Shown here: piece by piece, positions 10,201-53,568 of the stretch
Position numbering within the stretch: the first letter of the stretch is position 1
Layout of the letters: each line of letters begins with the position of its first letter
Source: Malacoraja senta
Lineage: Eukaryota
Reading direction: 5' to 3'
DNA length: 60,000 nucleotides
NCBI GenBank assembly: GCA_038087875.1
Contig: CM075989.1
Span: forward strand, 13,208,001 to 13,268,000
Notes under the pieces: generated by a model
Database searches by the model: none
Seen by the model: only the letters and a program-made list of their open reading frames with translations
What the model was told of the DNA's origin: nothing
Translations under genes and position numbers: made by a program

Positions 10201-13200
10201 ATGGGAAAAGATGCTTTCTCCTGAGTAGTTCTTTGATCAGATAAGATCGGCATTAAAATGCCATACTTGCTTATGGACATCTGGTTTGTGTATGGGGGGG
10301 GTGGCACTCAGATCCTCACACCTGCCTCTGTGTACAGTAAGCTCCCGACTGATCTGATTGTACTCGCATGCCTTTATTCTCTTCACAAATCCATTAAACC
10401 ACCTGATCTGTCTACCATTAATAATCAAAGGAAAGACACTTAGTGCTGGAGTAACTCAGCGGGACAGGCTGCATCCCTGGAGAACATAAATAGGTGACGC
10501 CTCGGGTCGGAAACCTTATTCAGACTTTTGAAAACATCCTAAAAGGCCATTGAAAGTAGAGCTGAAAAACCCATGCTTCTGGCAATAGATATTGTCTTCT
10601 CTGTCTCAAATGGGAATTCCTTACTTTTAAATAGTTTTTCTTAGTTCTAGATTCTCCCAAAGATTAAATGTGTCCACCACACAAGATCTTGTCTGTTTCA
10701 TTTGAGTCCTTCCTTGCCTGACCAATCTCTAATAGATGTTATGGAATAGCATACCCTCTGCAACGTCGAGTTATGTACTGATCTAGGGCACAGGACATGA
10801 CTTGTGATCTGAATTGTCTGCATATTTTTTTTAAATTACTATTTACAAAAGCTGTAAGATTTAACTCTGATGTCTGTGGCTCTTCTTCTTCGTGTGGCGT
10901 GCACAGCCTAAAGTTGTTGGACAACTTGTTCTATTTGATCTTCCGTTTGTGCACGTCGAGTTGATTGCATTAGTCGAAACAGGGCGGACCACGTGAAGGT
11001 TGCAATCTTCCACCCCGTCTGTGGCTCTGAAAATGAGCGGGTGATGTTTTTCAGGAGACTGGGAATGTATGCTTTGAGAATGAGGTCCTTCACCTACTAA
11101 AGGTCCTGCGTCCAAGATCGTTAGTACTCTCTTTGTTAAATGCGGAGTTGGTATTAAATTCACTGACTTGCATTTTAGATGGATTTGGATTCTACACGAC
11201 TGTCTTGGAGTTGCTTTTTGCCTTAACTTCTTGAAGACCTTGAAGATGCCTCACTTTAAGGTAATGCGTGTGTTGTTCGGGAATATCCTGTTTTTTATTT
11301 AGATGGGCAAACTATATTTCTGTTGTAGAACTATCTGTTCATCATCTGATAATGCAAAATAAAGTGGATTTGAATCCTTATGGGAAATTCTGAAAACAAA
11401 AGTGGATTTTGGGAAGTCACTGAGGTATAACTTACTATTTGGATGCTGAAAATCATGAGAGCCCGTGCTGATTCTGAATAGTTGGTTGACTAGTCTCGTA
11501 AACAGGGACGAGCAGTGTGATGGCTTCAGGGGTCATGGACTTTGGAAAACCCTGTGAGGAAGTTGCTTCCCCCCATTAGCTGATTAAGCTGAATAGAACA
11601 TGTGGGGAAAGGGGAGCATTAAAAACAGACAAGTGAGGAAATGGAGCTTGTGGTAGGGGCAAGCTGAATGAATGTCAGTCATTCTGCGGGGTTTTTTTCT
11701 GGGACCATATGCGTAACCAATTTGGTTGATGGTCTAAAGAAAATGTTCACAAGATGGAAAACTAAATTAATCGGGGGTGGGGGGAGATATTCTCTTGCAG
11801 TTCCTTAGTCTGAGGGAATTACAATATATTTCTTGCTGCAGGCATTTAATAACTTTTGGTGTATACCTGCCAACTGGCTCCCTGAGGTGCAGCCATTAGA
11901 GCAGGGTGGAGTGGTGGGGGTAGAGTTGATGGGACTGTGGGGGAAATAGGCTGCGGCGGAAGTTATTGGGATTGTGATTGCTTGGTATTGGTGGGCTGAA
12001 GTGGCTTCAGCGCATTTGGAAGCCTGTAGCACAAAGGAACGTGTTTTTTGCTGGGTGCTAATCTTCTTCACTTGATTTCCAGTCCTGTGTCATCTTGCTG
12101 GGTCTCCTCCTCATCTATGATGTCTTCTTTGTTTTCATCACGCCACTCTTCATGCCGGTGAGTTTACTGCTCTAGCTTCCCGCAGTGCAATGCAGCCCAG
12201 TATCTACAGAGGGTGTTGAGTAATTGCCTAGCTTTTACACCCTTACCACTGTTAATGAAGCCAAGGGTCTAATTTGTTTTAAGTCTCAATTTGTGCAATT
12301 TGAGAATGTGAGCACATTGGTACCGTCACTCCAACAAGTTTCTCCATGTTGCAGAATCACGAGAGCATTATGGTTGAGGTCGCAACAGGATCTGGATCTG
12401 GCAGCGGTGAAAAGGTAAATTATAAACTAATATTTCAGTGATGGGTTAAGGCTGGTGCTTTGCTAACTAACCGTCAAGCTGGGATTGGGATTCCTTGTGC
12501 ACTAAATATCGGGTTTGATTCTAGACTACTGGAACCAACTTAATGGAACTTGCTGTTGCACCAGCGCCTCATAATGAAAAAGTAAGAACTTGTTTATCAA
12601 AGCTTAAATGTTACAGGGTAATTACTTTTTAATCTATCTATATATACATTACAAAAACTCTCATCTTGTTTGTAAGTTTGTTTGTAAATTGTGCATTGTA
12701 CCTATATTTGTGCAAAAACGGTACACGATAGAGCTACAATTTTTGGCCCAACTTACCATTGCCCTGTGATGTAAATGAAACCAATTTAGTTCAGATTGAT
12801 GGTATATTTTATCAGTTATTGACATTTTAAACTTTACAAAAAAACCACTGCCCATCAGCCGCGTTTGACGTCACAATGGGATCCCGAATTTCATTTACAT
12901 TAAAAAAAAAGCGTAGTTATTTATATTCTAAAACCTCCCCGTGATTTTCATTGGGGGGGGGTTCAATTTTTTTTTAAATCGTGATTTTCATTGTTGGGTG
13001 GGGGGGGGGGGGGGATAGGATAGGGCGGAAGTTTCATTTAAAAAAAAGACATCTCTATTTTCATTGTGGGGGGTAGGATAGAGGGGAGGTTTCATTTTTT
13101 AAAAGAAATTGCGATTTTCATTGTGGTGGGTGGGATAGGGGGGAGGGGAGGAGGATAGAGTGAGGGGAGGAGAGAGGGAGGGGAAGGTGGGGGAGGTGAG

Positions 13201-19200: not shown

Positions 19201-22200
19201 TGGTGCTGAATAATTTAAATTATTTGTTCGGTCTGTAATCAACACAGGGTAGAACAAACATTGCACTGGAAATGATGTGTCACAGATTTGAGTTCATAGC
19301 TTGGAGCTAAGGATGTAGCTTGTGTTTCTAAATGGGGAATGATGTATTAGAGGGTGTGGGAGATTGCAACCTTCACGTAGTCTGCCCTGTTTCGACGAAT
19401 GCAATCAACCCGGCGTGCACAATCAAATAAGATCAAATAGAACAAGTTGTCCTACAACTTTAGGTTGAGCACACCATATGCAAGAAGAAGATGATGTATT
19501 AGAGCACGATTGCCATGTTTAGTGACCACAAACTTAATGTAATCAGCCTCTCTAGGTCTTCGACATCACCAGGGAACCATTATTCCAAGGTAGGACACAA
19601 GGAAATGTTTTATTTGTCGGGGGCTTGTCTCTCATCAATTCCTTAATTCCAGTTGTGTCTTTCTGTTGTTACTTTCTCTTTTTCCTTCTGGTGCACTATT
19701 CCAAATTCCATTTTGCCTAAAAAAAAAACATGCTGCTGGTCATTTTGAACAGTGTGACAAATATTTACATTTGGGGGAAATGAAAGCTGCTTGGAAATCA
19801 AATCTTTAAGCTTTAATGTTTGTTGTAACTGTGATTATTGACTTTGTTCTTATCAAATTAATGATTTTTGTTGAGATGTCTGTCTTGAAACAGCAACTGG
19901 TGATCAAATGTAATCAACTAAAGCAACTCGGTCTCCCACAATTCCCATGTGCTGTCTAGAGCAATAAAAATAAGCCTTCCTTATGATGTGATGGACTTCA
20001 GTAGGCAAACAACATATGACTGGATGTCTTGCAAATTTCTGTGGGTGATGGATCTGGGACCATTTGTGATGGTGCAGCTTGCTGGGATTGGGGCTGTCAT
20101 GGCTGGTCACACCTCAGGCAGGTGATCTTTGCATAGTTGTCAGTAGGGTGACAGTGTGGCGGTGCGCAGCCTTGCTCTGACAATGTGCTGCTTATCATCC
20201 AAGTGCTGAAAGGTTTGCTTTAGTTTATTCTGATCTGGTGATTTGTTTCAGTCCAGAAGAAAGCAAAGCTTATTTCACAATTATATTGGACAACAATTTC
20301 ACATCCTTAGGTCTGACATTTAAATTTAAACCGCACTACTGTGGTTGGGCTACCCTTGGAGGAAGGGTCCTGGAGTGATCGCGTGGACAGTCGGTCTCAG
20401 TCTACCTCAATTCAAAGCAATCTAGGAATGTTTTTAATGGCCACTTTTCCTGAAGCCAGTCTTTCCACACATGTAACTTGCAGCTGTGAGACTGAAATGT
20501 GAAGTCACTACTTGCCTGCCAACCACACCTGCACATAGCAATCCTGCATCACTTTCAAGCAATTTGCCTTCAATACAGCTTCAGCTGTGCTCAAACAACC
20601 TCGTCCACTCGCCATTAATATTTGGTCACATTTATGAATGTTTGTGCTATACATAGGTTTTACAAGGCTTCAATCCCACTAGTACTCAGACTGACAAGTT
20701 TCCTCGAGCTCAGCAGGTGCTTTATGGTGAGGAATCTATTTATCCAATTTGCATTACAAACACGCTGTTTGGGGAGGTCCAGTGCCAGAGAGTTTCAGGA
20801 TTAAATTCCATCCGCCATTGCTCTGCCTATTCCTATCAAGTAATCATTATCATCCCCCAGTCCAGGACTATCTTCGCTATCAACACCGCCAACAATGATT
20901 GTCACATCTGTGAGCCTCCATCTGTCAGGGCCCCAGCAGTTTCCTCCCGTGCTTCCCATAACAGTCGGATATATCTCATCAAGTCCTAGGGATTTATCCA
21001 CTGTTAAACCTGCTAAGATATCTAATATCCCCTCTGTTTTAATTATATTGTGTTCAATAATTTAATTGTTTTACTCTCACCCCTCCCTCAATCCGCCATG
21101 AACAGTGTTCTTGGTGACTGGAGGGGTAATAATTTAAGACTTCAAGTCCTCTGGCTCCATGCACAGCTTTCCCCTTTGGTCCCCAATGAACCCCATTCTT
21201 TCCCTGGTTATTCTGTTATCCTTAAGGGCCTGTCCCACGTAGGCGACTTTTTAGGCGAGTGCAGGAGACTCTGCGCTCGCCACATGGTCGGCACATGTTC
21301 GCTGGTGGTCTCTGGTGAACCTTCCTGTTCATCGCGATGTGTCTGTATCACCTTGGCTTTGCACCTTGTGAATTTCAGACAGCGCTCCCCCGCTTTACCC
21401 GCCTTTGCGATGTGTTTGTGTGCGTGTTCCACTCTGACAGACGCCGTTCCAGTTCCCGGTTTTACAGGCGAGTGCCGCGAACTTGACAGTCGCCGGCAGT
21501 CCGCTGAAAAATCGCATGTGGGTCAGGCCCTTTAATGATTTGGCATTTTCTTTAATCTGGTGTGCCATGATATTTTGTGCCTCCTATTTGACATAAATGT
21601 CTTTAAGTACCTCCCCCGTTCCCCCAAACTTTCTATACACCTGACGGGCATTCTTTATTTCAATTTCTCATCACGTGACATCTGCTTCCCTTTTTTCCCC
21701 TTCATGCAAGTCATGTTTTCCCTTGACATCCAAGGTTCCTTGGACTTGCTGTCCTTAACTTTCACCTTTATAGGAACACGTCCACCTGAAATCATTAACT
21801 CCCACTTGTGGGATGTCACTTTCCCTGCAGGCTCTTTTTACCATCCGAGCTACAGTGGCTTGCAAAAGTTTTCATACCCCTTGAACTTTTCCACATTTTG
21901 TCACGTTACAACCACAAACGTAAATGTATTTTATTGGGATTTTATGTGATAGACCAACACAAAGTGGCACATAATTGTGAAGTGGAAGGAAAATGATATA
22001 TGGTTTTCAAATTTTTTTACAAATAAAAAACTGAAAAGTGTGGCGTGCAAAAGTATTCAGCCCCCCTGAGTCAATACTTTGTAGAACCACCTTTCGCTGC
22101 AATTACAGCTGCAAGTCTTTTGGGGTATGTCTCTACCAGCTTTGCACATCTAGAGACTGAAATTTTTGCCCATTCTTCTTTGCAAAATAGCTCAAGCTCA

Positions 22201-49834: not shown

Positions 49835-52398
49835 GTATGGTCAAACTGATGTCTCTACAATCTGATGTGTTCATATTCTTGAAGGCATCCCTGTTTCATT
49901 TTACAATCAGTTAGTTGTTACAACCAGTTGTAGAGCAGTTTTAGTAGTATGCAGTTTTTGTGGCTGATTCAAGGTGCTGCAGGAGATTTAACTGTTTTGA
50001 TGCAAATTTGTTGCATCACATTGATGGTTATCTGCTGTCAAATCAAATGACCATTTTTGGATGGTGGTGCTTTTTTAAACTAAAATTTGACCGCTTTTAG
50101 TGCATTCTTCTGTTTTGGATATTTAATGTTGTTTTAAATTATTTTGCATTATGGTTTCGACAAATTAGTCTGGGTTCTATGTCTCCTTTTGCAGTAGTGA
50201 CCATTAAAAAAAAGAAAAGAGTCTTGTGTTTGAGGTATTAGCATTAAATTGAAGAGATTTGCTGTTAACTATGAAACTTTTTGGGGAAACTGGAGGTAAA
50301 GATAAATTACTAGCACCATTTGTGGTATGGGGAAGATGCCTGCCTAGCTGATCGTCAGCAACTCCTGATGGTTATTGGTTAAATTTCTGCCAACAGGGAA
50401 CGGAACCTGCATGTAGAATGAAGTGAAGCAGGAAATTAATTGAAACTGGTTTAAATAGTGTTAAACTCTGTTAATTACAGTTAAAATGAATACACCCTTT
50501 TATAATGAGAGGGTTTTAAATTCTTGTTGCCACTAGTCATTCAGATGGCTCCACATGTTGGAAATGTCATCTTGTGAAACTGTATGGTTAGCTTTGAAGA
50601 GATTTTTTCATCTGTCTAATATAGGTGTGATTGTCCTTTGCATAAATAACATACATTAAAAGGGGAGACTTCCTCTTTGGATGGGATGCATATTTTAACA
50701 AATTAGAGGCTAAATATTTTAACATAATGTGCTTGTCCTTAGTTTGGCATTATTTGGCCAATCATTTGGGTACAGTTAACACTTGAGAGCTTGAAGGAGG
50801 TATATCTATTGCAAATTTAATTACAGAAAGAGAATTCCTGAGAATTATTCATAATCTGAACAGCTTGTTATTTGGAAATATAGCTGTCCGGCAATATATT
50901 CAGACAAAAACATAGGTCAACCAAGGACAATGTGTATTTAAACCAGGGAGTTTAACACAACCATTCAGATATTGTCATGAACAGAATTTCCACAAAGTAG
51001 AAGATGTGTGCAACCCTGCAGCACCTGGCAATTCAAACCCGCAGGTCTCCCAAATGCTTATCCATATGTGCGGGTTGTATGTAAATTGAACATTTGTAAC
51101 TGTACATTTACATTTGAATATTATTGCACTTGTATAACCTGACTAGACTAATCTTTGAAACTGTCGTATTTTGACAGTCCCTTGATGTTTAAGAATGATC
51201 CTTTGCTCCCCCCACCTCCCTCAATCAGGATTATTTTGTAGGTTCTGGGATGGCTGAAGAGGCTGAAGTTGCTGAGTTCAATAGAACTTAGAAATGTACG
51301 TGACCAAGTGGGACGGGCGGGCTTGGAATGTTGATCTTGTGGAAATGCTACTTCCTCTCTACTATGTGCTTGCTTCACAGGCTTGTGGTTTGTTTAGGTC
51401 AGCCCTGGGCATGTCTCTCATGAATACATGTTAATGTGTTCAGGTTTTTTTTTTTTGCTAACTCGGCCCTTAATTGAATTTGGACAGAATGGTGTGTTTT
51501 AAAAATAGGAAGCTAAAAAATAGAAGTGGGGGTAGACCATACATTCCCTTGAGACAATTCTATTTTCATTAGGATTATAGCTGAGCTATTCCTCCTAAAC
51601 CTTTAAATCAAAATTCCATATTTTTCCACATAAGCCAAAAAACAACTGTTGATCTTGATCTTGAATATACTGTCTGACAAACCACACTTTTGGGATAGAG
51701 AATTCCAAAGATTACAAAGTTCTTTGAGGAATCTTCCCCCTCACCTACCATGCCTTATTTTGAAACCAAGCCCTTGGGTTTTGATTCTTCAGCCAGGACA
51801 AACTCTGTGACTTGGGCAGCGCGGTGGTAGAGTTGCTGCCTTACAGTGCCAGAGACCCGTGTTCAATCCTGACTATGCATGCTGTCTGTGTGCAGTTTGT
51901 ATGTTTTCCCTGTGACCATTTGGGTTTTCTCTGGATGCTCAGTTTTCCTCCCACACTCCAAAGACGTACAGGTTAGTACGTTGCTTGGCTTCTGTTAATT
52001 CTGAATTCTCCCTAGTGTGTAAGATACTGCAAGTGTAAGGGGTGATCACTGGTAGGCAGGGACTCTGTGGTATGAAGGGCCTGTTTCCACGCTGTATCTC
52101 TAAAGTCTAAAGTAAAGTCTTCCTGTCAATCCATCTCAGAAACATCTGGTGAAGGATTTTCAACCAGAAACATTATTTTGGGCTTACTTTCGATTCATTT
52201 CTGCTTTCTTTCAGAACCCTGTATGCCTCTGAGTTTGAAGTTAGGCATCTGGTGACCTGGTGAAGTAATGTTGCGGTGTTTGCAGGATTAGCTCAAGGGA
52301 CAAAGCTGATGTTGGTTTATCTGGTATCTATATGTGAAAATATCTGCAGGCAGGGTTAATAATTCTCCACTGCATTAAGGTATTCCCTGAATGCTATA

Positions 52399-53568
52399 AG
52401 AAACTCAGCGAGTGAGGCAGCATCTATGGAGCGAAGGAAATAGGCAACATTTTGGGTCGAGACCCTTCTTCAGACAGATGTTTTGGGGGGGGGGGCGGCA
52501 GTGGGAAGAAGAAAGGAAGAAACGGAGACAGTGAGCTGAGGGAGAGATGAGAAGGGGAGGAGAAAGCAGGGACTACCTGAAATTAGAGAAGTCAATGTTC
52601 ATACTGCTGGGGTGTAAACTGCCCAAGCAAAATATGAGGTGCTGCTCCTCCAATTTACAGTGGTCCTCACTCTGGCCATGGAGGAGGCCCAGGACAGAAA
52701 GGCCAGATTCGGAATGGGAGGGGGGGTTGAAGTGCTGAGCCACCGGGAGATCAGGTAGGTTAATGCAAACCGATCGGAAGCGATCGCCAAGCCTACGCTC
52801 TTCTATACCCCGTAACTCTGCTCTCACTCCCCATCCCCCCCACTCGTAACAAGGGCAGTCCCCCGTGTCCTCACCTTCTATCCTACCAGCCGTCACATAC
52901 AACAAATAATCCTCCGACATTTTCACCACCTCCAACGGGATCCCACCACCGGCCATATCTTCCCATCTCCTCCCCTGTCTGCTTTCCGCAGAGACGGCTC
53001 CCTCCGTAACTCCCTGGTCAATTTGTCCCTTCCCACCCAAACCGCCCCCTCTCCTGGCACTTTCCCTTGCACCGCAGGAAATGCTACACTTGTCACTTTA
53101 CCTCCCCCCCCCCCCCCCCCGACTCCATTCAAGGACCCAAGCAGTCTTTCCAGGTGCAGCAGAGGTTCACCTGCACCTCCTCCAACCTCATCTATTGCAT
53201 CCGTTGCTCTAGGTGTCAGCTGCTTTACATCGGTGAGACCAAGCGTAGGCTTGGCGATCGCTTCACCCAACACCTCTGCTCGGTTCGCATTAACCTACCT
53301 GATCTCCCGGTGGCTCAGCACTTCAACTCCCCCTCCCATTCTGAATCCGAACTTTCTGTCCTGGGCCTCCTCCATGGCCAGAGTGCGGACCACCGTGAAT
53401 TGGAGGAGCAGCACCTCATATTTCACTTGGGCAGTTTACACCCCAGCGGTATGAACGTTGACCTCTAATTTCAGGTAGTCCCTGCTTTCTCCTCCCCTTC
53501 TCACCAGCTGAGTTTCTCCAGCATTTTTGTCTACCTTTGATTTTCCAGCATCTGCAGTTCCTTCAAAA
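52399..53568. mobile_element. Penelope-like insertion with inverted duplicated 3' ends
   Basis: GIY-YIG ORF 53067-53468(+) and an inverted copy of its 3' end at ~52400-52800(-); TSD CCCTGAATGCTATA at 52385-52398 and 53569-53582. Confidence 0.88.

What the first reader, a model, noticed from the sequence alone, without database searches (positions are those of the whole stretch)
10884..11016. Ribozyme-headed mini-retroposon: a ~135-nt SINE-like element that begins with a complete HDV-like ribozyme
Seen: the - strand reads GGGGUGG-AA-GAUUGCA-ACC-UUCACGU-GGU-CCGCCCU-G-UUUCGA-CUAA-UGCAAUC. This gives P1 (with G1:U wobble), P2, P3, a 7-nt L3, a near-absent P4 and a J4/2 with the catalytic C, all in HDV order. 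Ribozyme G1 (11016) directly abuts a 12-bp TSD, and copy 2 starts at the same position. The 3' half forms a stem CGUGCACA/UGUGCACG enclosing the hairpin AAGUUGU-CCA-ACAACUU, followed by a (GAA)n tail; no Pol III A/B boxes are visible. Known: HDV-like ribozymes process the 5' ends of R2 and RTE non-LTR elements, and R2 has short internally deleted derivatives. Inference: this is a promoter-less retroposon that cuts itself out of host transcripts and is mobilised in trans, probably by an RTE-type LINE. I do not know of it being described in this lineage.
Basis: partly seen in the sequence, partly recalled or inferred. Interest (0 to 1): 0.92.

Follow-up and report, generated by a model that had tools for sequence, protein, structure and literature searches.

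The report
Ribozyme-headed mini retroposon, RTE-like parent
This is a very young, thousand-copy 133-base mobile element whose first 54 bases have the fold of a self-cutting HDV-like ribozyme, and it belongs to a set of elements (a longer sister family and a protein-coding LINE in the same genome) that start with the same kind of ribozyme and end in the same (GAA)n tail.

Summary
Window 11016-10884 (- strand) is one copy of a 133/134-nt retroposon with a 12-bp target-site duplication and a (GAA)n tail. The genome holds 1,307 exact copies of its first 30 nt. Every sampled copy starts at the same G.

The first 54 nt fit an HDV-like double pseudoknot: 7-bp P1 with G1.U36, 7-bp P2, 3-bp P3, 7-nt L3, C22-G37, a catalytic-position C44, and almost no P4. 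A generic descriptor hits only this site in the window, and only 4 sites in 11.5 Mb of shuffles. The only two Rfam matches are HDV families, both below threshold.

An Rfam HDV search of the whole genome then found a second, older family of about 207 nt (F2). F2 starts with a full 68-nt HDV-like ribozyme that has a P4. Between the two families, 7 P1/P2 pairs change on both sides and stay paired.

F2 is the 5' end plus the 3' end of an RTE-like LINE. That LINE starts with the same ribozyme and ends in a 22-nt 3' UTR and (GAA)n.

The kind is known (ribozyme-terminated RTE, bipartite non-autonomous LINEs, R2 SIDEs). The P4-less mini form is a new variant. Cleavage itself is untested.

The parts
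10884..11016 (-). Family-1 (F1) mini retroposon, copy 1: 133 nt including the short GAAGAAGA tail
   Evidence: One search gives the sequence. In one search, all 40 scored genome matches cover nt 1-133 at 99-100% identity. One search shows the same start in 31 of 31 copies.
10963..11016 (-). Putative minimal (P4-less) HDV-like ribozyme, element nt 1-54. Predicted cleavage is 5' of G1 (11016).
   Evidence: Descriptor hit. Global alignments to RF02682 (16.0 bits) and RF00094 (14.5 bits), both starting at G1. Covariation with F2.
11010..11016 (-). P1 5' strand GGGGUGG (nt 1-7)
   Evidence: Pairs with nt 30-36. Pairs 5-32, 6-31 and 7-30 change on both sides between families.
11001..11007 (-). P2 5' strand GAUUGCA (nt 10-16)
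   Evidence: Pairs with nt 48-54 and appears in the MFE fold. Four P2 pairs covary with F2.
10988..11000 (-). P3 ACC (nt 17-19), L3 UUCACGU (nt 20-26), P3' GGU (nt 27-29)
   Evidence: Invariant core columns in alignment A2. U20, C22, A23 and G25 are at the same numbers as reported for CPEB3 (passages of PMC4836649).
10981..10987 (-). P1 3' strand CCGCCCU (nt 30-36), with U36 opposite G1
   Evidence: The common variants at nt 31 (C>U) and nt 32 (G>A) both keep the pair.
10974..10980 (-). G37 (P1.1 partner of C22), U38, and the 5-nt linker UUCGA that replaces P4
   Evidence: C22-G37 is paired in 16 of 16 distinct rows. F2 has a 5-bp P4 hairpin at this place.
10970..10973 (-). J4/2 CUAA with C44 at the catalytic-C position
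   Evidence: Aligned to the CUAA of both Rfam HDV models and to C57 of F2. The second base varies U/G in other copies.
10963..10969 (-). P2 3' strand UGCAAUC (nt 48-54)
10898..10955 (-). 3' domain: stem CGUGCACA (nt 62-69) with UGUGCACG (nt 112-119), enclosing the hairpin at nt 90-106
   Evidence: MFE and centroid folds. The stem is kept in all subfamilies.
10884..10897 (-). 3' end CCACACG plus the (GAA)n tail. Older subfamilies read CCAUACGCAAG(AAG)n.
   Evidence: ACGCAAG(AAG)n is shared with F2 and with the LINE 3' end.
11017..11028 (-). Target-site duplication, 5' copy (AGAGCCACAGAC)
10872..10883 (-). Target-site duplication, 3' copy
19353..19490 (+). F1 copy 2: an older subfamily, 86% identical, with decayed P1 and P3 pairs and J4/2 CGAA. 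Its TSD ATGATGTATTAGAG lies at 19339-19352 and 19491-19504.

Best explanation
The element is a non-autonomous non-LTR retroposon (F1). It has three parts: a 54-nt minimal HDV-like ribozyme, a 3' stem-loop, and an ACG(A/C)AAG(AAG)n end.

Proposed mechanism:
1. Copies have no promoter of their own and are transcribed as part of longer host or neighbouring transcripts (inferred).
2. The head folds into the nested double pseudoknot and cuts 5' of G1, so the RNA starts exactly at element nt 1. This is inferred from the fold and is consistent with the uniform 5' ends that are shown.
3. The 3' end is used in trans by the reverse transcriptase and AP-endonuclease of a resident RTE-like LINE that ends in the same ACGCAAG(AAG)n. 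The shared end is shown; its use in trans is inferred.
4. Target-primed reverse transcription at weakly T(C/T)|A(G) sites yields 11-13-bp duplications and full-length copies (shown).

F1 is the shortest member of a lineage in this genome. The lineage comprises the LINE (ribozyme with P4, APE-RT ORF, 22-nt 3' UTR), F2 (about 207 nt, made of the LINE 5' end plus the LINE 3' end), and F1 (P4 lost, new P1/P2 sequences, own 3' stem-loop).
For: **Retroposon features**
- All 40 scored matches, of 1,343 first-look candidates, are full length at 99-100% identity.
- The genome holds 1,307 exact copies of the head 30-mer.
- 31 of 31 copies start at the same G.
- An exact TSD of 6 bp or more is present in 41 of 58 independent copies, with a mode of 11-13 bp.

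**Ribozyme fold**
- All helices and core bases are present in HDV order.
- The descriptor hits only this site in 120 kb of window sequence, against 4 sites in 11.52 Mb of shuffles.
- On the 63-nt stretch, the only Rfam matches of 4,227 families are the two HDV families. Both are global alignments with the cleavage site at G1.
- A genome search with RF02682 found 5 full-length matches of 25.9-36.7 bits, with a best genome-wide E of 0.027. All 5 are heads of a second TSD-flanked, (GAA)n-tailed family.
- On the alignment of 7 F1 and 14 F2 heads, 94.8% of cells pair, against 32-44% when the partner is slid. Seven pairs change on both sides. The covariation score is 0.291 against at most 0.077 for slid partners, and 0 of 500 shuffles reach it.
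- Variants at 10% or more in three other organisms' runs touch the ribozyme only at nt 31 and 32 (pairing kept) and nt 45 (J4/2 second base).

**LINE partner**
- The LINE ORF C-terminus is followed by a 22-nt UTR and ACGCAAG(AAG)n.
- The ORF has APE and RT domains.
- Homologues are single proteins of about 1,008-1,015 aa on contigs of 3.3-3.6 kb.
- Two independent LINE copies begin with the F2-type head.
- F2 nt 2-174 align to the LINE 5' end.

**Published background**
- Minimal HDV-like ribozymes lacking P4 are described (PMC10879173, passage read).
Against: - No cleavage data exist.
- No raw RNA reads were available, so RNA 5' ends could not be seen.
- One contig of an RNA library runs 85 letters upstream across G1. 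This could be uncleaved RNA or DNA carry-over.
- Rfam scores are far below the gathering thresholds: 16.0 against 44 bits and 14.5 against 50 bits. The F2 heads also stay below 44 bits.
- The nested-fold energy of the whole element is no better than shuffles: z = 0.75, with 150 of 200 shuffles folding as well. That model cannot score pseudoknots.
- The covariation rests on only two lineages, so each compensatory pair is about one event.
- Within F1 no paired position shows a double change.
- The descriptor was written after seeing the sequence.
- F1 shares only about 13 nt plus the repeat with the LINE 3' end, and its body has no detectable similarity to the LINE.
- The 4 LINE heads examined are decayed and fail the strict descriptor.
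- Loss of P4 may lower or abolish activity.
Confidence: 0.8

Rival explanations
1. Relic head. The first 54 nt descend from the LINE/F2 ribozyme but no longer cleave because P4 is lost. The 5' end of F1 RNA would then be set by something else, for example an internal Pol II start as in the dual promoter/ribozyme Pr77 of L1Tc, or the head would serve as a protein-binding or stability element.
For: - P4 is reduced to a 5-nt linker.
- Rfam scores are low.
- An RNA-library contig crosses G1.
- Dual promoter/ribozyme heads are described for L1Tc/NARTc (abstract of PMC3383444, listing).
Against: - All catalytic-core positions and all P1-P3 pairs are intact in the youngest, 99-100% identical copies. 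Forty of 62 sampled copies still pass the strict descriptor.
- The head word is shared by more copies than the tail word: 1,307 against 727.
- P4-less HDV-like ribozymes exist (PMC10879173).
Confidence: 0.13
2. An ordinary Pol III SINE with a head of unknown small-RNA origin. The HDV-like pairing would be coincidental, and the uniform 5' end would reflect a Pol III start.
For: - A uniform 5' end is also expected from a Pol III start.
- GUUUCGA at nt 37-43 faintly resembles a B box.
- There is no run of 4 T inside the element.
Against: - The best A-box and B-box matches have 3 mismatches each, no better than 84% and 66% of shuffles.
- There is no tRNA and no tRNA, 5S, 7SL or snRNA match at E up to 10.
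- The chance rate of the fold is about 4 sites per 11.5 Mb.
- The same fold, with compensatory changes, heads F2 and the LINE.
Confidence: 0.04
3. F1 is mobilised by a LINE other than the RTE-like one found here. The shared ACGCAAG(AAG)n end would then be convergent or too short to matter.
For: - Only about 13 nt plus the repeat are shared.
- The F1 3' stem-loop was not found in any LINE.
- The genome has about 160,000 first-look RT candidates from many families.
Against: - Of the first 100 listed matches (of 2,945) to the word ACGCAAGAAGAAGAAG, by my own reading of the listed strings nearly all are F1, with a few F2-type and 2 LINE ends, and only 1 that I could not assign to a family.
- The sampled L1-like families end in A-rich tails and one other LINE ends in (TTGTG)n.
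- No other (GAA)n-tailed repeat was seen in 296 kb of held sequence.
Confidence: 0.1

Closest known systems
Bipartite non-autonomous RTE elements (e.g. MAR4_MD, RTESINE2, WALLSI3; Kojima 2018, PMC5786205, passages read)
   Same: - They are short ORF-less elements made of the 5' end and the 3' end of an RTE-type LINE, keep the LINE's true 5' end, and are presumed to be Pol II transcripts.
- That paper already suggests that a 5' self-cleaving ribozyme explains why the 5' end is kept.
- F2 fits this description exactly.
   Different: - F1 is much shorter, at 133 nt.
- Its head has lost P4 and has different P1 and P2 sequences.
- Its body is not recognisably LINE-derived.
- It shares only the last 13 nt or so plus the repeat with the LINE.
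R2 SIDEs and R2/R1 hybrid SIDEs of Drosophila (Eickbush and Eickbush 2012, PMC3414825, passages read)
   Same: - The layout is an HDV-like ribozyme at the 5' end plus a LINE 3' recognition end, with no Pol III head.
- Self-cleavage from a co-transcript gives the 5' end.
- The catalytic-core primer printed there (CCTCCTCGTGGT) is close to the ACC-UUCACGU-GGU of F1 and the ACC-UCCCCGU-GGU of F2.
   Different: - SIDEs sit in specific rDNA sites at low copy number and depend on Pol I co-transcription.
- F1 and F2 are dispersed genome-wide in hundreds to thousands of copies with variable TSDs. They use an APE-type LINE.
HDV-like ribozymes at the 5' ends of RTE, R2, Baggins and L1Tc LINEs (Ruminski et al. 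2011, not held and cited only via reviews PMC6765202 and PMC7761336; L1Tc/NARTc, PMC3185411 and PMC4035085, abstracts)
   Same: - The ribozyme sits at nt 1 of a promoter-less non-LTR element and releases it from read-through transcripts.
- NARTc is a non-autonomous element that keeps the ribozyme.
   Different: - Here the ribozyme heads a 133-nt element in a large (1.94 Gb) animal-type genome.
- It is of the minimal, P4-less form.
Minimal HDV-like ribozymes and theta ribozymes (PMC10879173, passage read), and the CPEB3 ribozyme (PMC4836649, passages read)
   Same: - Like the minimal forms, F1 lacks a P4 domain.
- Like CPEB3, F1 has G1.U36, U20, C22, A23 and G25 at the same numbers, a one-G-C P1.1 next to a U-U, and a 4-nt J4/2.
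- F2 has its catalytic-position C at nt 57 followed by G58, as reported for CPEB3.
   Different: - Minimal forms were described from metagenomes and phages, and CPEB3 is a single-copy intronic ribozyme of mammals.
- No sequence comparison with either could be run here. The CPEB3 Rfam model gave no match at E up to 10.

Membership tests
HDV-like (delta) self-cleaving ribozymes | Nested double pseudoknot in the order P1-J1/2-P2-P3-L3-P3'-P1'-(P1.1)-P4-J4/2-P2' | tested here: met
   The sequence shows it and the descriptor hits at nt 1 only. In alignment A2, 94.8% of cells pair, with 7 pairs changed on both sides. P4 is nearly absent in F1 and is 5 bp in F2.
HDV-like (delta) self-cleaving ribozymes | Core bases: G1 with a wobble U, a C in J4/2 at the catalytic position, U and G at the ends of L3, and a C of L3 pairing with the G after P1 | tested here: met
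   G1.U36, C44 (F1) or C57 (F2), U20, G25 and C22-G37 are present. C44 aligns to the CUAA of RF02682 and RF00094. The numbering agrees with passages of PMC4836649.
HDV-like (delta) self-cleaving ribozymes | Score at or above the curated gathering threshold of an Rfam HDV family | tested here: not met
   F1 scores 16.0 against 44 bits for RF02682 and 14.5 against 50 bits for RF00094. F2 heads score 25.9-36.7 against 44 bits. These models are narrow, do not score P2, and penalise the missing P4.
HDV-like (delta) self-cleaving ribozymes | Site-specific self-cleavage 5' of G1 that depends on the catalytic C and divalent ions | not testable with these tools
   This needs an in vitro transcription-cleavage assay. 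RNA runs were available only as contigs.
SINE in the strict sense (Pol III head from tRNA, 5S, 7SL or snRNA) | Internal Pol III promoter or a head derived from a small RNA | tested here: not met
   The best A-box and B-box matches are no better than shuffles. There is no tRNA and no small-RNA family at E up to 10.
LINE-dependent non-LTR retroposon (TPRT product) | Variable target-site duplications, a simple-repeat 3' tail, dispersed copies, occasional 5' truncation | tested here: met
   An exact TSD is present in 41 of 58 copies, tails range from 2 to more than 20 GAA units, and truncated copies carry their own TSDs.
Bipartite non-autonomous LINE / SIDE (5' end plus 3' end of the parent LINE) | Both ends recognisably derived from one autonomous LINE | tested here: inconclusive
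   Met for F2: nt 2-174 align to the LINE 5' end at 71%, and the last 33 nt or so to the LINE 3' end at 97%. For F1 only the ribozyme architecture and core (25 invariant columns) and ACGCAAG(AAG)n are shared. No other similarity was found.
RTE clade of LINEs (for the partner element) | Single APE-RT ORF of about 1,000 aa, element of about 3-3.5 kb, very short 3' UTR, simple-repeat tail | tested here: met
   APE and RT Pfam domains are present. Homologues are 1,008-1,015 aa on 3.3-3.6-kb contigs. The 3' UTR is 22 nt. One chromosomal copy spans about 3.05 kb by my coordinates.
RTE clade of LINEs (for the partner element) | Phylogenetic placement of the RT within the RTE clade | not tested
   No reference LINE RT set was available. 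The resemblance of the C-terminal motif to RTE/BovB is recalled, not tested.

The most novel reading that the evidence does not exclude
F1 carries the smallest natural eukaryotic HDV-like ribozyme described so far: 54 nt, no P4, and catalytically active. By shedding P4 and nearly all LINE sequence, it became the most successful recent parasite of its RTE-like LINE, with thousands of copies at 99-100% identity, and is probably still mobile in several related species. Its core is colinear, base number for base number, with what is reported for CPEB3. That would make retroposons of this type a concrete candidate source for single-copy intronic HDV-like ribozymes of vertebrates.
Probability: 0.3. 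Interest if true: 0.7.

Novelty: new variant of a known kind. Interest (0 to 1): 0.55.

Why it matters
This genome offers a graded series in one place: an autonomous LINE, a 207-nt bipartite derivative, and a 133-nt mini element. All three start with an HDV-like ribozyme and end with the same short tail.

The series is natural evidence for the published conjecture that a 5' self-cleaving ribozyme lets internally deleted RTE derivatives survive without a promoter.

The 54-nt head would also place minimal, P4-less HDV-like ribozymes in an animal genome with a clear job. The literature read here says the origin and function of such minimal forms are still open.

Because thousands of near-identical copies exist, the activity and the in vivo 5' ends are easy to test.

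Tried and rejected
**Looking for a LINE that shares exact F1 words**
- I used pattern searches with exclusion letters placed next to the head 3' half, the hairpin, the body, the P3/L3 core with a different P1 and the 17-nt end.
- They returned only mutated, indel-bearing or truncated F1 copies. Each exclusion design had roughly a 40% chance of passing an unrelated neighbour, so these negatives were weak.
- L037 and L046/L056 have an F1 head followed by foreign sequence, but no LINE ORF.

**Sampling LINE families by RT**
- Sampling RT-bearing families through PF00078 gave L1-like elements with A-rich tails and one LINE with a (TTGTG)n tail. None was the partner.
- Of 12 windows fetched at the expected LINE 5' ends, 10 showed no match, 1 was 5'-truncated and 1 was full length.
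- The 40 best matches to the LINE 5' ORF are one locus amplified on unplaced contigs, because 10 of 10 fetched share the same flank. They count as one observation.

**RNA evidence**
- All 23 runs found are held as contigs only, so RNA starts, strand and level could not be read.
- The joint 'goes back 68' also stands in a run that is probably DNA, so it is a genomic partial-plus-full tandem and not a circular RNA.

**Other checks that led nowhere**
- The whole-element folding energy is no better than shuffles and is uninformative for a pseudoknot.
- A search for the L3 string in papers gave only unrelated hits.
- Earlier notes of this scan hold nothing for this genome or this sequence.
- Ruminski 2011 and Webb 2009 are not held.
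- Dfam and Repbase could not be consulted.
Full report
**The observation**

A 12-bp duplication, AGAGCCACAGAC, abuts both the first G and the short GAAGAAGA tail. The window lies in a 1.94-Gb, 6,182-contig genome.

- A search with the 133-nt element gave 1,343 first-look candidates. All 40 that were scored cover nt 1-133 at 99-100% identity.
- In the 30 loci returned, 31 of 31 copies begin at the same GGGGTGG. Each has its own flanks and a variable (GAA)n tail.
- L001 and L002 share flanks, so they are a segmental duplication 74.6 kb apart.
- I dropped five same-flank duplicates (L001, L002, L004, L054, L056) before counting. Of the remaining 58 near-full-length copies, 41 have an exact TSD of 6 bp or more. 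The commonest lengths are 12 bp (13 copies), 11 bp (12) and 13 bp (7). The other 17 mostly show a TSD with a mismatch.
- 28 of the 41 TSDs start with A.
- Tail-only hits (L057/L058, L060, L063) are 5'-truncated insertions with their own TSDs.
- The second copy in the window (19353-19490, + strand, 86% identical) starts at the same element position.
- Exact-word counts are 1,307 for nt 1-30, 727 for nt 90-119 and 2,945 for the older-subfamily end ACGCAAGAAGAAGAAG.
- At least three subfamilies are visible.

**Is the head an HDV-like ribozyme?**

The 54 nt contain the following elements:

| Element | Detail |
|---|---|
| P1 | 7 bp, with G1.U36 and U5.G32 |
| J1/2 | 2 nt |
| P2 | perfect 7 bp |
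| P3 | 3 bp |
| L3 | UUCACGU |
| After P1 | G37, able to pair with C22 |
| In place of P4 | 5-nt linker |
| J4/2 | CUAA, with C44 at the catalytic position |

- The numbers U20, C22, A23, G25 and G1.U36 coincide with those given for the CPEB3 ribozyme in passages of PMC4836649.
- A generic descriptor hits only this site in both strands of the window. It hit 4 start sites in 11.52 Mb from 96 dinucleotide-preserving shuffles. I wrote the descriptor after seeing the sequence, from recalled rules.
- Rfam finds nothing at gathering thresholds.
- With E-value thresholds, the 63-nt stretch matches only two of 4,227 families, and both are HDV families. RF02682 scores 16.0 bits (E 0.23) and RF00094 scores 14.5 bits (E 2.1). 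Both are end-to-end alignments that place the cleavage site at G1 and align CUAA to CUAA.
- The nested-structure energy of the whole element is unremarkable: z = 0.75, with 150 of 200 shuffles folding as well. The MFE contains P2 and the centroid contains P1.
- No tRNA, no small-RNA family and no better-than-chance A or B box is present.

**The decisive step: a second family**

I searched the whole genome with RF02682. Only 62 of 82,112 candidates were scored. Five full-length matches came back at 25.9-36.7 bits, with a best genome-wide E of 0.027.

- All five are heads of a second family, F2. It is about 207 nt long, TSD-flanked, and ends in ...CUCAAACGCAAG(AAG)n.
- F2 has 845 first-look candidates. 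The 39 scored matches besides the query's own locus are 91-95% identical, and 36 of the 40 scored start at query nt 1.
- Sixteen further copies all begin at the head's first position, directly after their flanks.
- The F2 head is a full 68-nt HDV-like ribozyme with these elements:

| Element | Detail |
|---|---|
| P1 | GGGGCUC/GAGCCCU, with G1.U36 |
| P2 | 8 bp |
| P3 | ACC/GGU |
| L3 | UCCCCGU |
| After P1 | G37 |
| P4 | 5-bp hairpin |
| J4/2 | CGAA, with the C at nt 57 |

On an alignment of 7 F1 and 14 F2 heads (16 distinct rows), the named structure gives the following:
- 94.8% of cells are paired, against 31.9-43.6% when partners are slid by 1-3 columns.
- Seven pairs change on both sides: P1 pairs 5-32, 6-31 and 7-30, and P2 pairs 11-66, 13-64, 14-63 and 16-61.
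- The covariation score is 0.291, against at most 0.077 for slid partners. None of 500 shuffles reaches it.
- The conserved columns are the catalytic core, P3 and part of P1.

The caveat is that this is essentially two lineages. Within F1 there are no double changes, only one-sided ones that keep pairing: nt 31 C>U and nt 32 G>A, plus U/G at the second base of J4/2. The strict descriptor is still met by 40 of 62 F1 copies and 10 of 19 F2 copies.

**The autonomous partner**

Among the first 100 listed matches to the shared end word, two had a different upstream context.

- Those two (L101, L102) are 3' ends of a coding element. An ORF ends in a Cys/His motif, which gives a weak zf-RVT hit at 23 bits, below the cut-off. 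The stop codon is followed by only 22 nt and then (AAG)n. The last 33 nt or so are 97% identical to the F2 end.
- This 3' end has 546 first-look candidates, and a region further upstream has 359.
- L107 shows RT motifs, including YGDD.
- A protein search gave 4,673 candidates, with about 110 matches at 72-86% identity.
- L108 begins with the F2-type head, continues through a 5' UTR into an ORF with AP-endonuclease domains, and later has an RT domain. Its 3' part is interrupted by another LINE.
- F2 nt 2-174 align to the first 220 nt of this LINE at 71% identity; the LINE has 47 extra nt. F2 is therefore the LINE's 5' end joined to its 3' end.
- The 40 best matches to the LINE's 5' ORF are one locus amplified on unplaced contigs, since 10 of 10 share the same flank.
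- An independent chromosomal copy (L127) with a different flank also begins with the head and spans about 3.05 kb by my coordinates. L124 is 5'-truncated, and 10 other windows showed nothing.
- Database homologues are single APE-RT proteins of about 1,008-1,015 aa on contigs of 3.3-3.6 kb.
- The architecture (one ORF, about 3-3.5 kb, tiny 3' UTR, simple-repeat tail) is that of the RTE clade. A phylogeny was not run.
- The four LINE heads examined are decayed and fail the strict descriptor.
- Beyond the head architecture, F1 shares only ACG(C/A)AAG(AAG)n with the LINE.

**Other species and RNA**

Sampled words of the F1 part, but not of the flanks, stand in runs labelled as organisms A, B, C, E and F. 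The whole stretch stands in runs of organism D.

When four runs were laid, cover stops at 11016/11017 and at the tail. The loose ends there have low agreement, as expected from many insertion sites. All runs are contigs, so RNA ends cannot be read. One contig of an RNA library runs across G1.

**What is known**

- HDV-like ribozymes at the 5' ends of R2, RTE, Baggins and L1Tc are established (reviews PMC6765202 and PMC7761336, passages).
- R2 SIDEs and R2/R1 SIDEs consist of a ribozyme plus a LINE 3' end (PMC3414825).
- NARTc keeps the L1Tc ribozyme (abstracts).
- Bipartite non-autonomous RTE elements are catalogued, and a 5' ribozyme has been proposed as the reason they keep the true 5' end (PMC5786205).
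- Minimal HDV-like ribozymes lacking P4 are known from metagenomes and phages, and their origin is described as open (PMC10879173).
- My searches found no paper describing a dispersed, high-copy, P4-less ribozyme-headed mini-element in a large animal genome. Dfam and Repbase could not be checked.

**Verdict**

The element is a new variant of a known kind. The ribozyme fold is well supported by comparative evidence. Cleavage, and dependence on read-through transcription, remain inferences.

Noticed in passing
L080-L100 (e.g. G000:C5114:178084-178299, -): A second ribozyme-headed retroposon family (F2, about 207 nt). It has a full 68-nt HDV-like head with P4, TSDs and a (GAA)n tail, with 845 first-look candidates at 91-95% identity.
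   Followed up: yes
L108 (G000:C2310:64200-68500, -), L127 (G000:C1:323241273-323242173, -), L101/L102/L107: An RTE-like LINE with an HDV-like ribozyme at nt 1, an APE-RT ORF, a 22-nt 3' UTR and a (GAA)n tail. The copies seen are broken or decayed.
   Followed up: partly
G000 unplaced contigs C2310, C2824, C1534, C727 and about 35 others; L109-L118: One LINE insertion together with its flank is present in at least 40 copies at 96-100% identity on unplaced contigs. Two of them lie 9.6 kb apart on C2310, so it looks like part of a large amplified or tandem repeat unit.
   Followed up: partly
window 10872-11028 versus G000:C13:13144218-13144350 (L002): The F1 copy of the finding and its flanks are duplicated 74.6 kb away, outside the window, at 100% identity. 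This is a recent segmental duplication.
   Followed up: no
runs X12 and X10 laid on window 10949-11016; L025, L041: Head-to-tail arrangements of a partial F1 (nt 1-68) directly followed by a full F1, and pairs of F1 copies within a few hundred bases. F1 sometimes inserts into or next to F1.
   Followed up: no
L075, L077-L079 (e.g. G000:C2:44046533-44050000): Several L1-like LINE families with A-rich tails. One has many copies with an uninterrupted 1,271-aa frame, which suggests recent activity.
   Followed up: no
L076 (G000:C395:63300-64900): A different LINE whose 3' end carries (TTGTG)n repeats.
   Followed up: no
window 52100-52560 and L044 (- strand, around 1780-2240): An unrelated dispersed repeat (about 80% identity between the two copies) with an internal G-run followed by GAAGAAGAA. 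It is not a tail.
   Followed up: no
L062, L070: F1 copies split by insertions of about 450-650 nt of other repeats.
   Followed up: no
window 11049-11092 (-): A weak, sub-threshold match to a Tetrahymena C/D snoRNA family (20.3 against 60 bits, E 0.18) just upstream of the element. Most likely chance.
   Followed up: no
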